A DNA stretch of 64,000 nt from the NCBI RefSeq assembly GCF_965641715.1, contig NZ_OZ282453.1; one strand, 5' to 3'. Shown here piece by piece: positions 39,001 to 45,000 of the stretch. This DNA is from Escherichia coli. GTDB taxonomy: Bacteria > Pseudomonadota > Gammaproteobacteria > Enterobacterales > Enterobacteriaceae. Each line of letters begins with the position of its first letter. Within the stretch, counting starts at the first letter, position 1. A program made the position numbers.

Positions 39001-42000
39001 CGCCCAGCCGCTGGATGAACAGGCACAATCAGAACGTGAAGCCCGTAAGGCTCCGGTGATTCAGGCTGCAATAAAACTTGCAGGCGCGGTTCATTACGCT
39101 GACGTACAGATTAACGTTGTTCGCTAAGGGGAAGTGAATGTCTACCTATTCTTTTATGGATGTCACTGCGACGCTGACCGGCCCGACCGGTTCGATTGAC
39201 CTCGGGTACGGTTCTGCAAGTTCTGAAGAGGGGATTGTGGTTGCGATGGGCGGTCCTAAAAACACCATGATCATCGGTGCTGATGGCGAAGTGATGCACA
39301 GTCTCCATGCAGATAAAAGCGGGACGATCACCGTTAACCTTCTGAAGACATCACCGACAAATAAAAAATTGTCGCTGGCGTATAACGCACAGAGCCAGTC
39401 TTCTGCCACATGGGGGAATAACGTTATTGTGATCCGAAACAAGGTCAGCGGCGACATCATCACGGCACGTAGTGTTGCGTTCCAGAAACAACCGGATAAT
39501 GCCAACGCTAAAACCGGTAATACGATGCCGTGGGTGTTTGACTGCGGCAAGATTGACCAGGTTCTCGGGGAGTTTTAATACATGGAATTCGAAATCAAAG
39601 GCGTGAAATATCGCGTGGCAAAACTCAGCGTTTTTGACCAGCTGAAAGTGACCCGCAAACTTCTGCCGGTACTGGCGGGAATGATGTCAGATTTCGGGAG
39701 CATTCGCTCCCTGTTGCCTGCTGATGGCAAAATCGACACCGTGAAATTCGATCAGTTGAAACCGGTATTTGAAACCCTGCTTCCGCGTATCGCTGAGGAA
39801 CTGTCTTCCCTGACTGAAGAAGACACCAACGCGATTATTCATCCGTGCCTGGCCGTAGTATCACGTAAGCACATGGACGGATGGACGCCGGTATTTAAAA
39901 GCGGTCAGCTGATGTTCGATGATATCGACCTGCTAACCATGCTGCAGCTGGTGGCGCGGGTGGTCGCCGATTCGCTGGGAAATTTTTTGCCCGTGAGCCC
40001 TACCAGCCCGACGCCGGGCCAGCTTCAGGGTTGACCCTCAACAGCCTACCAGACGGGCTGTCTTATCTCCTTGACCCGGTTGATGCCGGGTTAATCCCTT
40101 ATTACGCGCTGAAGGATGGATCAATCGATCTGTGCGATATCGCGCTGATGAATGACCACCTGGCCGTTAAGGCTGACAACCAGCGCCGTATAGAGAAATG
40201 GAGAGAGGATAATGAACGCTGAGACTATTAAAGATTTCCTCGTCTCGCTTGGTTTCGATATCGACGAAGCTGGCGCGGAAAAGTTCGATTCAGTCCTGGC
40301 CGGCACGACCGCAAACGCTATCAAAATGGGGCTGGCCGTCGAAGGTGCCGCGCTTACCGTGGTGGCCTTCACGGCTAAGATCGCCTCCGGTCTGGATAAT
40401 CTCTACTGGGCGTCACAGCGCACTGGCGCGACGGTACAGGGGATTCAGTCTATTGGCTATGCGGTTTCCCAAGTGGGCGGCAGCGTAGACGCGGCGCGCT
40501 CCTCTCTGGAAAGCCTCTCCCGATTTGTGCGTAACAATCCCGGCGCGGAAGGCTTCCTGAATCGCCTGGGCGTACAGACCCGTGACGCCAGCGGTAACAT
40601 GCGTGACATGGCCGCTATCTTTACGGGTGTCGGCCAGAAGCTCAGCAGCATGCCGTACTACCGGGCTAACCAGTATGCGCAGATGCTGGGGATTGACGAA
40701 AACACCCTCATGGCGATGCGCCGGGGTGTGGGCGGTTTCTCCGGGCACTACAGCGCAATGGCGAAGGCTATCGGCTTTAATGCTGACGAGGCGGCCAGAA
40801 GCTCCAATAAGTTCATGACTTCTCTGCGCGAGTTCGGCGCGATGGCAGGCATGGCCCGTGACAAAATCGGCTCTAATCTTGCTGGTGGTCTGGCGGGTTC
40901 GCTGGACACGCTGCGCCGTCATATTCTGGATAATTTCCCGCGCATCGAGCAGACCCTGACGAAAGCCATAAAAGGCATTCTGGCGCTCGGGGACATCATC
41001 GGGCGGTTGTTCTTCCGGCTTATTGAGGGGACATCCAGCCTTATTACCTGGTGGCAATCGCTGGATAAGCAAACCCGGGAGCTGATCTCGCTGTTTGGCG
41101 CACTGACGATTGCGCTGCGCATTCTGAACAGTACGTTCTGGATGTCGCCGGTTGGCCTCATTACCGCGCTGGCGGCGGGGATTGCCCTCCTGTGGGAGGA
41201 CTATCAGACCTGGAAGGAAGGCGGCGACAGCCTGATTGACTGGGGCAAGTGGAAACCGGAGGTCGATGCCGCGCTGAAGATGGTTCGTGACCTTAAAACG
41301 ACCGTTAACGATCTGGCGAAAGCGCTGGCGAAACTACTCAATATTGACCCCAAATCATGGTCCCTGAAGTGGGATTTCAGCAACTTCATCGACCAGATGG
41401 GCGAATTCAGCAAAATGCTGAACATGATCGCCGACCTGCTCAACGCTATCAAAGATGGACGCTGGGCTGATGCCGTCAGCATCGGCAAACAGATACTTAA
41501 TCAGGGCAGCGAAAATCCGTCAGCGATGCCGATGGTTACAGACAGCGCTAACAGTACTGCCGACTGGATTAAAGAGCACTGGGGATTCGATCCCATAAGC
41601 GCTAACTTAAGGGTTGAACCATCTGAAGAATGCGACGCCTCGGTGCCTCGTTAAGACGATGCCTCGCGTTCTTCAATTGCGTTTTGTAGGCTGTCAGGGA
41701 TACTGTCCCACGAATGGCCACCTGTAAGCTCCAGATGACCATTTTTGTTATTCTCCACAACGAGTTAGTTCTTCTTTTCGGATCCGGCACTTCTGGGGGG
41801 GAAATCCAGCGATGGCTGGATTATGTCGTCAATTAAAAATGCGGCGAGTAGATTAGCAAATATCCACGCTTTCGCGAGTTCAGGTTCCTTTGCACGCAAA
41901 GCATCCAGGTGCAGCAAACTTTTGAGCCGCTTAAAAGCCAGTTCAATTTGCCATCGCAGACGGTAACAATCAGCCACTTGCTCTGCTGAATATTCATCTT

Positions 42001-45000
42001 CCGGTAATGATGTTAGCAATAGCACATGGCCCGCTGCTTCCAGCGTTTCCGCCTGAACTACTCGTCCTTTTCGACGATTCTCGCTGAGCAGTCGGGTTTT
42101 ACTGATTAATGCTTTTTCGGGAGGAAGTGATACGGCAATGAGACGTGCCGGAAAGGGAGCTCCGGCTTTTTTATTACCTGAATTGCCTATCATTACAGTG
42201 GTTTCACCGTTCTTACCGCAATCCAGCCCGCGCAGAAAACCCATCATGTCAAAGCGCATTCCTTCTGCAGTTAACCAGCGCAATCCTCGCCAGTGAACCC
42301 GGACGATATAATCAGCTTCTCCAAAAGCAAGTGAGCGGATACATTCGGGACGCGAACCGAATCCCCGGTCAGCAATGCGTATCTCGTCTGCCGTTTGCGC
42401 AAATCGGTCCAGCCGTTCAGCGTCTCTGCTGTCGGTTAGCTCAAAATCAGTGAACTGACAGGTATGAGGATCATATCCCATATGTAGTCGCCATTCAGCG
42501 CTGCCGCCCCCGGGCGCACTGATTGCTGTTCCATCGACAAGACGCAATCTCTTTCCGCTTGTACAACCCGTAACTGCGGCGCGTACAGCAAGTGTTTGTG
42601 CGGCAAGTATGCCAAACCAGTCGGCGGCATTCCGCAGCCGCTTCAGGAGAGCCACGTCAGATAATGTTGCAACGTCATGGAGCTGAGCCCATGCAGTGAC
42701 TTCACGTAATGACATCCCCCCGGGGCCGTAAGCCAGCCCCAGACGTAGCAGAGTTGCAGCATCACGAATTTCGCGGCGGCGGGTTAGAGCCCCGGCATTA
42801 CGTGCCGAAGTATCCAGTTCTTCGGGCTTACCAATATGGGCCAGAATTGCTGACCAGTTATCGTGAGAGTAATTCATCGGCACGTTAAATCATATCAGGC
42901 GTAATACCACAACCCTTAAGTTAGCGCTTATGGGATTCGATCCCCGCAGTGTGGGCCGGACGGTACGCGGCTGGTTTGGTGATGATGAGCCGGAACAACA
43001 TGCACAGGCTACGAAACGAGGAGAGCGGAATAACAATCCGGGAAACCTTAATTTTGCTGGTCAGGCGGGGGCTTCTCTTGAACACCCGGGCGGGCGATTT
43101 GCCAGATTTGAAACTGCCTTTGATGGATTACGGGCTCTTGCTCGTCAGTTAATGTTGTACGCCGGGCGAGGAATAAACAGTGTGGAAAAAATTATCTCTA
43201 CCTGGGCACCTGCCTCTGATAATAACAACACAACTGCGTATATCAGGGCTGTATCGCAACGACTGGGAGTGGATCCCCGGGCTGCCCTGAATATGAGCGA
43301 TCCGAAAACCATGTCAGCATTGATGAGCAGCATTATCCAGCATGAAAATGGAAGAAATATCTATTCTCGAGCGCTGATTAATAAGGCTGCCGTGGCGGGA
43401 ATTAGTGGCAAAATGACAGAGGTTAACCAGCAAAATACCTACCACATTTACGGTGGCGGAGATCCGCACGCTGTCGGTAATGAGGTTGCACGTCGGCAAC
43501 AGTCTGCAAATGCTCAGGTCATGCGAAGTAATCAGGTGAGGGTGGGTTAGTGGATATTCTCTCTACACTTTTTCATCAGCAGAGCAGAAAAATAGGAATG
43601 ATTGTTCCCAGTGTTGTTATTTCAGAGAAGCATACAGATATGCTTGAAATAACCGAGCATCCGGTAGAGGTCGGGGCTGCTGTCGCTGATCATGCCTATA
43701 AAAAACCGTCAGAAGTGGTGATGGAGGTTGGTTTCGCCGGTGGCGGCACATTGCTGGATTTTGCCAGTAACCTGACGGCTACCAGCCTGCTCGGCCTGAG
43801 TCCTCAGCAGACGTATCAGGAGCTACTGGATCTGCAGGAAAGCCGTATCCCCTTCGATGTGGTAACCGGTAAACGGCTGTACAGCAACATGTTGATCCGG
43901 GCGCTGGAAGTGACGACGGACAAGACAACCGAAAATGTCCTGTCCGCCGTCCTTACCCTGAGGGAGGTCCTTATCTCCCGGACACAGCAGATTACCGTCG
44001 CGGATAAAACCAACATGAAGGAAGGGGCCAGCACGTCGGCGGTACAGAATAGCGGCAACAAAACCACAAAGCCTCCAGATACTTCACTGCTGAAAAGCAT
44101 TACGGGTAACGTGGCGTCATTACTAGGAGGCGGCTAATGACAATTCAGGAAATTCCGCTGACAGCGGACAACCAGCAGTTCAGCATCGTCCTGGGCGGTG
44201 TCACCTGGCGGATTAGCATCATATGGCGCGATCTGTACTGGATTATGGACCTGCAGAATGACAGAGGGGAGCCGGTAATCTCCGGTATTCCTCTCGTCAC
44301 TGGCGCTGATCTGCTGGCGCAGTACGCCTGTATGGGGCTTGGTTTTAAGCTGTTGGTGGTCTGCGATGACAACACACAGGATTATCCCACGAAAACTGAC
44401 CTGGGCAGTCGCAGCCATTTACTGGTATCAACGGAGTAAGCATGTCACAGAACTGGATGAGACATTTCGAGCTGCAGCTTGTGGACGGGAACGGTCAGGG
44501 AATTGAGCTAAGTGATTTTAAAGTCACCTTTACGATCGACTGGTTCAACATCAGCAGTGCGTCCCGGGTAGGGACTATCAAAATTTATAACCTCTCGGCA
44601 GATACTGTGAACCGAATCACCGGGCAGGAGTTTTCGAAAGTGCGTCTGATTGCGGGTTACGACGGTATCGCGCCGGAGGTGTCGGCAAGCGACGTCGGGA
44701 CTGTGCGGGAAGTTGACGCGGCGGACGTGGGCCAGAGTGATGGCCGCAACTACGGACTAATTTTCAGCGGTGAAATTCGCTACTCGGTCACAGGAAAAGA
44801 CAGTCCGGTTGATTCCTACGTCCTGATTCAGGCAGCAGATACTGATCTGGCTTTTGCCACCAGTATAACCTCACAGACGCTGGCTGCCGGTTACACGGTC
44901 GCTGATGTGAACCGTGCGCTGATGAAAGACTTCGAAGCCAAAGGCGCGACCGAAGGCCTGACGCCTGAAATGCCTGCTACTGTATTCCCCCGGGGGCGGG

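What the first reader, a model, noticed from the sequence alone, without database searches (positions are those of the whole stretch)
41583..42943. IS186 insertion with 11-bp target duplication disrupting the tape-measure gene
A complete IS186 with 23-bp terminal inverted repeats and a ggattcgatcc duplication splits the tape-measure ORF; removing the element and one duplication copy restores a single 663-codon frame. The prophage therefore almost certainly cannot build tails and is locked in, while its cargo genes remain intact.
Basis: seen in the sequence. Interest (0 to 1): 0.5.

Follow-up and report, generated by a model that had tools for sequence, protein, structure and literature searches.

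The report
IS186 splits a prophage tape-measure gene
A common E. coli jumping gene (IS186) recently landed in its preferred target sequence inside the tail tape-measure gene of an otherwise intact-looking prophage, which most likely stops the phage making infectious particles; this is a real but ordinary event.

Summary
Window 41594-42932 is a 1339-bp IS186, 100% identical to IS186A of E. coli K-12. It has perfect 23-bp terminal inverted repeats and an intact 370-aa transposase on the minus strand. It is flanked by the 11-bp duplication GGATTCGATCC.

The reconstructed empty site, GGGG-ATTCGAT-CCCC, is the published IS186 target motif. Only two such motifs exist in the repaired 64-kb window.

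Removing the IS and one duplication copy gives a 1989-nt ORF (662 aa plus stop). That ORF is 100% identical to an uninterrupted gene in E. coli TL20, whose prophage at the same argW site differs by 5 SNPs in 28.9 kb. It matches the tape-measure family phrog_2276 end to end. Isolated phages SEN34 and vB_EcoM-689R2 carry it as one gene.

None of 5,426 complete E. coli genomes has an IS186 at this site in either orientation, so the insertion is private and recent.

Loss of tails is a sound inference. "Locked in" is not supported: the att cores, intS, torI, the repressor and the lysis genes look intact. The expected outcome is an inducible, host-killing prophage that releases non-infectious, probably tailless, heads.

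This is an already known kind of event and of low interest.

The parts
41583..41593 (.). Left copy of the target-site duplication, GGATTCGATCC
   Evidence: It is identical to 42933-42943. Both copies align to the single copy in TL20 (the two alignment blocks overlap at L001 21371-21383).
41594..42932 (-). Complete IS186 (IS186/IS421, IS4 family), 1339 bp, with the transposase antisense to the phage late operon
   Evidence: 100% identical over 1339 bp to IS186A of K-12 MG1655. 100%-identical copies occur in many E. coli genomes; 2220 of 5426 genomes have a match to the element.
41594..41616 (+). Terminal inverted repeat at the window-left end, CATAAGCGCTAACTTAAGGGTTG
   Evidence: 0 mismatches; 0 expected by chance.
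42910..42932 (-). Terminal inverted repeat at the window-right end. Its last three bases (ATG on the + strand) supply an in-frame start codon for the 3' tape-measure fragment.
41765..42877 (-). insL transposase gene, 370 aa, intact
   Evidence: The protein is identical to K-12 InsL1. It scores 133 bits against NCBIfam NF033592 (IS4 family transposase), above the 115-bit cut-off.
42933..42943 (.). Right copy of the target-site duplication, GGATTCGATCC
40212..41654 (+). 5' fragment of the tape-measure gene: native residues 1-461 plus 19 IS-encoded residues (ISANLRVEPSEECDASVPR), ending at a stop inside the IS
42930..43550 (+). 3' fragment of the tape-measure gene: native residues 458-662 behind an IS-supplied ATG. 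It holds the muralytic-like C-terminal domain and the conserved extreme C-terminus. No Shine-Dalgarno sequence is visible upstream.
   Evidence: (phrog_873 and phrog_7182 match residues 474-649).
37982..40222 (+). Upstream tail genes that fix the identity of the interrupted gene: sheath (37982-39127), tube (39138-39578), tail assembly chaperone (39582-40034) and a DUF6889 small ORF (ending at 40222)
   Evidence: PHROG matches; PGAP names for the 99.98%-identical TL20 prophage.
43550..45503 (+). Downstream baseplate genes (43550-44137, 44137-44439, baseplate hub 44442-45503). They lie 3' of the IS in the same operon and so are exposed to any polarity.
   Evidence: A terminator-like hairpin on the + strand inside the IS at 42147-42166 is not above chance.
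12696..56815 (.). The whole prophage (44.1 kb including the IS), bounded by the 16-nt att core ATGGTGTCCCCTGCAG at 12696-12711 and 56800-56815. torI is at 12785-12985 (-), intS at 55482-56675 (-), and the argW tRNA-Arg at 56801-56875 (-).
   Evidence: The core equals the KplE1 core CTGCAGGGGACACCAT (PMC2951348).

Best explanation
A resident, active IS186 transposed by cut-and-paste into one of its rare preferred targets, GGGG-N7-CCCC. Here that motif is created by the codons for W-G-F-D-P-R at residues 457-462 of the tail tape-measure gene. The host element is a SEN34-like (Brunovirus-like) prophage with lambdoid early genes and a myovirus tail, integrated at argW in an E. coli chromosome.

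Staggered cleavage and repair duplicated 11 bp of the target. The gene is now split into two pieces:
- a 480-aa N-terminal product that ends in IS-encoded residues;
- an untethered 3' fragment with no evident ribosome-binding site.

Inferred consequence: the C-terminal end of a tape measure anchors it in the baseplate hub, and the tube polymerises around it. The truncated protein should therefore not support tail assembly, and induced cells should release tailless, non-infectious heads. Everything else needed for induction, excision, replication, packaging and lysis appears intact.

The event is recent and private to this strain. Rare precise excision between the 11-bp repeats could restore a functional phage.

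Shown: the IS identity, the duplication, the target motif, the restored ORF, the intact empty-site allele in relatives, and absence of the insertion elsewhere. Inferred: the tail-less phenotype, continued inducibility, and recency in absolute time.
For: - IS identity: 100% over 1339 bp to K-12 IS186A, with an identical InsL; perfect 23-bp IRs.
- Duplication: 11-bp TSD.
- Target: the empty site GGGGATTCGATCCCC fits the IS186 motif 5'-GGGG(N6/N7)CCCC-3' (PMC5009759). It is one of only two such motifs in the repaired window.
- In-silico excision gives a 662-aa ORF.
- E. coli TL20 carries that ORF uninterrupted at 100% identity. Its prophage at the same argW locus shows 4 mismatches over the 21,383-bp block and 1 over the 7,500-bp block flanking the IS.
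- 196 genomes have the full-length gene.
- The same empty target is present in TL20, E2348/69, RM12581, MLI108K3 and phage SEN34.
- No genome among 5,426 has either junction orientation.
- TMP identity: phrog_2276, E = 1.7e-281, covering residues 1-662; single TMP genes in SEN34 and vB_EcoM-689R2.
- The extreme C-terminus is conserved across mosaic variants. In Mu, the TMP C-terminus is clamped by hub and spike, and baseplate assembly is described as inseparable from the TMP (PMC11915804).
- The excision module is intact.
Against: - No direct evidence on phenotype.
- The parental prophage type has not been shown to be viable. Several accessory genes are already pseudogenes in TL20, and the tail-fibre invertase is a 41-aa stump. 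The phage may therefore already have been impaired.
- The IS end supplies an in-frame ATG for the 3' fragment, so some expression of the C-terminal domain cannot be excluded.
- Read-level support for the assembly is not available to me.
- The length of the duplication is formally ambiguous: an 11-nt TSD with the canonical 23-bp IR, a 13-nt repeated string, or a 7-nt 'core' in the nomenclature of PMC5009759.
Confidence: 0.93

Rival explanations
1. The split tape measure still works. The N-terminal fragment and a C-terminal fragment translated from the IS-supplied ATG (42930) associate non-covalently, so tails are still built and the prophage remains infectious.
For: The ATG formed by the IS terminus is in frame with the 3' fragment. 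The insertion lies about 60 nt upstream of the mosaic boundary between the tape-measure body and a swappable C-terminal muralytic-like domain, so the break falls near a domain boundary.
Against: - No Shine-Dalgarno-like sequence precedes the ATG (TTAAGTTAGCGCTTATG).
- The upstream ORF stops 1.28 kb earlier, so translational coupling is impossible.
- A tape measure acts as one continuous ruler anchored at its C-terminus in the hub (PMC11915804).
- No relative has a two-gene arrangement.
Confidence: 0.03
2. The IS is an assembly artefact: a repeat copy wrongly placed in the tape-measure gene when contigs were joined.
For: IS186 is multicopy in E. coli (median 3 places per genome), and IS copies are classic sites of misassembly. 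No other genome shows this junction.
Against: A misjoin would not create a perfect 11-bp duplication of the target on both sides, nor land exactly on the rare GGGG-N7-CCCC motif. Both junctions are seamless, and the flanks are 100% colinear with TL20.
Confidence: 0.02
3. The insertion is an old, fixed domestication step, selected because it disarms the prophage while the host keeps the cargo genes.
For: IS inactivation of prophage structural genes is a recognised route to cryptic prophages (general knowledge). The prophage carries open accessory ORFs.
Against: - The insertion is absent from all 5,426 complete E. coli genomes, in either orientation.
- There are zero substitutions in the split gene relative to TL20, and zero in the IS relative to K-12.
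- Lysis, replication and repressor genes are untouched, so the host is not protected from induction.
Confidence: 0.02

Closest known systems
IS186A/B/C of E. coli K-12 (IS186/IS421, IS4 family)
   Same: 100% nucleotide identity over 1339 bp and an identical 370-aa InsL transposase. The 23-bp IR is the same. The target architecture is the same: K-12 IS186A sits in GGGG-ATCACT-CCCC with a GGATCACTCC duplication.
   Different: Only the insertion site differs. This copy uses the 7-nt-core version of the target (11-bp duplication), whereas IS186A uses a 6-nt core (10-bp duplication).
Known IS186 hot-spot insertions (lon promoter in E. coli B; fimA and menC in mutation-accumulation lines)
   Same: Insertion occurs at a GGGG(N6/N7)CCCC site in either orientation and inactivates the target gene (PMC5009759; the lon hot-spot paper is cited in PMC3045373).
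   Different: The target here is a prophage structural gene. No recurrence was seen at this site in 5,426 genomes, so there is no evidence that it is a hot spot in practice.
Salmonella phage SEN34 (Brunovirus) and Escherichia phages vB_EcoM-689R2, 611R5, 683R1 and 606R2
   Same: The gene order sheath, tube, chaperone, TMP, baseplate is shared. The TMP is 75-80% identical at protein level. SEN34 is 89% identical in DNA over the first 1446 nt and carries the same GGGGATTCGATCCCC site. SEN34 combines lambdoid early genes with myovirus morphology (PMC5261728).
   Different: They carry an uninterrupted TMP gene. SEN34 has a different C-terminal domain, and 689R2 a different middle segment.
KplE1 (CPS-53) defective prophage of E. 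coli K-12 at argW
   Same: It uses the same integration site, the same 16-nt core repeat and the same IntS/TorI recombination module.
   Different: KplE1 is a 10-kb remnant without a repressor. The element here is a 42.8-kb (without the IS) near-complete prophage whose only evident structural lesion is the IS.

Membership tests
IS186 (IS4 family insertion sequence) | Nucleotide identity to the reference element | tested here: met
   1339 of 1339 bases identical to K-12 MG1655 IS186A.
IS186 (IS4 family insertion sequence) | 23-bp perfect terminal inverted repeats | tested here: met
   CATAAGCGCTAACTTAAGGGTTG at both ends, 0 mismatches.
IS186 (IS4 family insertion sequence) | Single DDE transposase ORF (InsL, 370 aa), uninterrupted | tested here: met
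   Identical to InsL1. NF033592 scores 133 bits against a 115-bit cut-off.
IS186 (IS4 family insertion sequence) | Target-site duplication at a GGGG(N6/N7)CCCC target | tested here: met
   11-bp duplication; empty site GGGG-ATTCGAT-CCCC. The motif is taken from PMC5009759.
IS186 (IS4 family insertion sequence) | Transposition activity of this copy | not testable with these tools
   Inferred only, from sequence identity to active K-12 copies.
Phage tail tape-measure protein | Full-length homology to a tape-measure family | tested here: met
   phrog_2276 'tail length tape measure protein', E = 1.7e-281, residues 1-662 against profile positions 21-659 of 673. Pfam PhageMin_Tail matches only weakly (E = 4.4e-4).
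Phage tail tape-measure protein | Position after the sheath, tube and tail-assembly-chaperone genes and before the baseplate genes | tested here: met
Phage tail tape-measure protein | A single polypeptide in viable relatives | tested here: met
   SEN34 (669 aa) and vB_EcoM-689R2 (661 aa) each have one CDS. 196 E. coli genomes have the full-length gene.
Phage tail tape-measure protein | Determines tail length and is required for tail assembly | not testable with these tools
   Rests on knowledge of other myoviruses, such as Mu gp42 (PMC11915804).
SEN34-like (Brunovirus) lambdoid myovirus prophage | Shared structural module and lambdoid early region | tested here: met
   Gene order and names. 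DNA identity is 89% over 73% of the TMP gene.
SEN34-like (Brunovirus) lambdoid myovirus prophage | Genus-level whole-genome nucleotide similarity to SEN34 | not tested
   Only the TMP region was compared, so I say 'SEN34-like', not 'a Brunovirus'.
KplE1-type IntS/TorI argW recombination module | Duplicated 16-nt core CTGCAGGGGACACCAT at both prophage ends, one copy within argW | tested here: met
   12696-12711 and 56800-56815; tRNA-Arg at 56801-56875; core sequence from PMC2951348.
KplE1-type IntS/TorI argW recombination module | Full-length intS and torI genes | tested here: met
   Open ORFs at 55482-56675 and 12785-12985, syntenic with the intS and torI annotated in TL20. The integrase domain is matched.
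KplE1-type IntS/TorI argW recombination module | Excision competence | not testable with these tools
   Needs PCR for attB/attP after induction.

The most novel reading that the evidence does not exclude
The GGGG-ATTCGAT-CCCC motif is conserved in the tape-measure genes of SEN34-like prophages because it encodes W-G-F-D-P-R. It could act as a standing IS186 landing pad through which E. coli recurrently disarms this prophage family. Alternatively, an insertion at the body/lysin-domain boundary could leave a functional two-piece tape measure. Neither idea is excluded outright. However, no second insertion was seen in 5,426 genomes, and nothing supports expression of the 3' fragment.
Probability: 0.03. 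Interest if true: 0.4.

Novelty: already known. Interest (0 to 1): 0.1.

Why it matters
The value is mainly for annotation. It explains why this prophage shows two 'hypothetical' ORFs and a transposase where relatives have one tape-measure gene. It also predicts that the strain will lyse on induction but give no plaques, or only rare revertants. It is a clean natural example of the IS186 target rule GGGG(N7)CCCC acting on a coding sequence, and of how one IS hop turns an apparently complete prophage into a defective one. It does not open a new question.

Tried and rejected
1. I looked for the same insertion elsewhere with 600-bp junction probes, in the observed orientation and the opposite orientation, against 5,426 complete E. 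coli genomes. No place covered 80% or more of either probe, so the insertion is neither shared nor recurrent there.
2. I considered that the two ORFs might be natural separate genes. This is rejected by TL20, by E2348/69 and other genomes, and by phages SEN34 and 689R2.
3. I looked for an outward promoter or terminators that could tell whether downstream baseplate genes are affected. Only one terminator-like hairpin lies on the + strand inside the IS (42147-42166), and the counts do not exceed shuffles. This is inconclusive.
4. I tried to give the 'cargo' ORFs a function with PADLOC, NCBIfam and Pfam. The only result was weak zinc-protease-like hits for the 447-aa ORF; nothing is usable.
5. 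I tried to read the original IS186 target paper (PMC95536). It is not held, so I used PMC5009759 instead.
6. Pfam on the repaired tape measure gave only a weak PhageMin_Tail hit. PHROGs was decisive instead.
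Full report
**1. What is in the sequence**

Reading 41400-43100 and testing all boundary combinations shows a 1339-bp element at 41594-42932. Its ends are a perfect 23-bp inverted repeat, CATAAGCGCTAACTTAAGGGTTG. That 23-mer occurs exactly twice in the 64-kb window, once per strand, with none expected in shuffles.

Immediately outside the element, GGATTCGATCC is present on both sides (41583-41593 and 42933-42943). An independent repeat finder reports the pair as a 13-nt string spaced 1350 nt apart, which is 1339 + 11. The extra base on each side reflects a boundary ambiguity: the IS begins with C and ends with G, while the target is GGGG...CCCC. For the same reason the inverted repeat can be read as up to 26 bp.

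**2. Identity of the element**

- The element is 100% identical over all 1339 bases to IS186A of E. coli K-12 MG1655. The 370-aa transposase (41765-42877, minus strand) is identical to InsL1.
- It passes the NCBIfam IS4-transposase cut-off.
- 100%-identical copies exist in many E. coli genomes; 2220 of 5426 genomes have a match to the element, with a median of 3 places per genome.
- PGAP labels these copies IS186B/IS421.

It is therefore a complete and presumably active IS186.

**3. Why it landed there**

Removing the IS and one duplication copy recreates CACT-GGGG-ATTCGAT-CCCC-GCAG. A mutation-accumulation study defined the IS186 target as 5'-GGGG(N6/N7)CCCC-3', a motif found only 54 times in the K-12 genome (PMC5009759).

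The repaired window contains just two such motifs, and the IS occupies one of them. K-12 IS186A sits in the 6-nt-core version, GGGG-ATCACT-CCCC. The site choice therefore matches the element's known specificity. This also argues strongly against an assembly artefact.

**4. The interrupted gene**

- In-silico excision (40212-41593 joined to 42944-43550) gives 1989 nt, which is 662 codons plus a stop, with no internal stop.
- The product matches phrog_2276 'tail length tape measure protein' from end to end, with E = 1.7e-281. Pfam gives only a weak PhageMin_Tail hit.
- Upstream lie the tail sheath, tube, tail assembly chaperone and a small DUF6889 ORF. Downstream lie baseplate genes. This is the canonical place for a tape-measure gene.
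- The C-terminal third resembles phage muralytic domains (phrog_873 and phrog_7182). PGAP names the intact protein 'lytic transglycosylase' in some genomes.

**5. Relatives with the empty site**

- The repaired gene is found full length in 196 complete E. coli genomes.
- In strain TL20 it is 100% identical and uninterrupted.
- The TL20 prophage sits at the same argW locus. Outside the IS it shows 4 mismatches over the 21,383-bp alignment block and 1 over the 7,500-bp block. Both duplication copies map to TL20's single copy.
- The isolated phages SEN34 (plaque-forming, myovirus morphology, lambdoid early genes; PMC5261728) and vB_EcoM-689R2 encode the protein as one CDS of 669 and 661 aa. A protein alignment shows both window fragments colinear with these single proteins.
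- The empty target GGGGATTCGATCCCC is present unchanged in TL20, E2348/69, O145:H28 RM12581, MLI108K3 and SEN34.

The stated refutation condition, that the two ORFs are naturally separate genes, is therefore not met.

**6. Age and spread**

Junction probes for the observed orientation and the opposite orientation found no genome among 5,426 with an IS186 at this site. The split gene has no substitutions relative to TL20, and the IS has none relative to K-12. The insertion is a private, recent event, not a fixed domestication step.

**7. Consequences (inferred)**

The 5' ORF now encodes native residues 1-461 followed by 19 IS-encoded residues and a stop at 41652-41654.

The 3' ORF starts at an ATG formed by the last three bases of the IS (…CTTATG) and is in frame. 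It encodes residues 458-662, but no Shine-Dalgarno sequence precedes it.

The last ~40 residues are conserved even between mosaic variants whose middle or C-terminal domains differ. In phage Mu, the extreme C-terminus of the tape measure is clamped between hub and spike, and stable baseplate assembly is described as inseparable from the tape measure (PMC11915804). The N-terminal fragment lacks this end, so tails should not assemble.

Transcription of the downstream baseplate and fibre genes must cross 1.3 kb of untranslated antisense IS. One terminator-like hairpin lies there, but the scan count is not above chance. The prophage has a Q-type antiterminator, which would be expected to carry transcription through. 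This point is untested.

**8. 'Locked in' is not supported**

- The prophage is bounded by the 16-nt core ATGGTGTCCCCTGCAG at 12696-12711 and 56800-56815. The second copy is the 3' end of argW.
- This core is the reverse complement of the published KplE1 core CTGCAGGGGACACCAT. KplE1 excises in vivo using IntS and TorI despite being a 10-kb remnant (PMC2951348).
- Both intS (55482-56675) and torI (12785-12985) are open.
- The CI-type repressor, cro, cII, replication genes, Q, holin, endolysin, terminase, portal and capsid genes have the same lengths as in TL20.

The predicted phenotype is an inducible prophage that excises, replicates, packages DNA and lyses the cell, but releases non-infectious particles. 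Rare precise excision could restore it; one excision was seen among 857 IS events in PMC5009759.

**9. Cargo**

- Two ORFs lie between the tail fibres and intS. One is 447 aa with an HEIAH motif and weak Lit/M48-like hits. The other is 200 aa with no hits.
- Three small ORFs sit inside the baseplate module.

All are open, but none has an assignable function. 'Cargo intact' is therefore true only in a trivial sense.

**10. Verdict**

The element and the type of event are already known, so interest is low.

Noticed in passing
window 50412-52356 (and about 52440-52565): An invertible tail-fibre segment is bounded by 20-nt inverted repeats, AAACCTTGGTTTGGGAGAAG. It is flipped relative to the near-identical TL20 prophage and only 93.6% identical within the segment. 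The adjacent Gin/Pin-type invertase is reduced to a 41-aa N-terminal stump (MLIGYVRVSTNDQ...), so any inversion must now be catalysed in trans or must predate the loss.
   Followed up: partly
window 45507-47036: Three small ORFs (113, 266 and 123 aa) are wedged inside the baseplate gene block. The last is annotated 'HEPN domain-containing' in TL20. The 266-aa ORF has no Pfam, PADLOC or NCBIfam hit. SEN34 and vB_EcoM-689R2 carry different small ORFs at this position, so it looks like a moron or possible toxin-antitoxin/defence slot.
   Followed up: partly
window 52721-54064 (-) and 54545-55147 (-): Two accessory ORFs lie between the tail fibres and intS. The 447-aa one has an HEIAH zinc-protease motif at residue 287 and weak hits to Lit, PD-Lambda-2_B and Peptidase_M48. 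The 200-aa one has no hits. An IS3 transposase fragment lies between them in TL20.
   Followed up: partly
window 26147-26302: The prophage carries tRNA-Asn (GTT) and tRNA-Thr (TGT) just downstream of the Q antiterminator gene. PGAP annotates only the tRNA-Asn in the identical TL20 sequence.
   Followed up: no
window 853-12259: The chromosomal flank left of the prophage holds the phase-variable autotransporter adhesin gene upaE (3762-11681, 2639 aa), an HTH regulator and the tyrosine invertases ipuA and ipuB, by synteny with TL20 at 98.9% identity.
   Followed up: no
window 42930-42932 (and the mirror-image end at 41594-41596): Because the IS186 terminal repeat ends in ...CTTATG, every IS186 insertion presents an outward-facing ATG at both ends. 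Here the right-end ATG is in frame with the 3' part of the tape-measure gene, but it has no visible ribosome-binding site.
   Followed up: partly
restored tape-measure residues about 300-480 and 480-620 (window 41100-41593 and 42944-43420): The tape-measure gene is mosaic among relatives. vB_EcoM-689R2 differs in the middle segment, and SEN34 has a different C-terminal lysin-like domain, while the N-terminus and the last ~40 residues are conserved in all. One mosaic breakpoint lies about 60 nt downstream of the IS site.
   Followed up: partly
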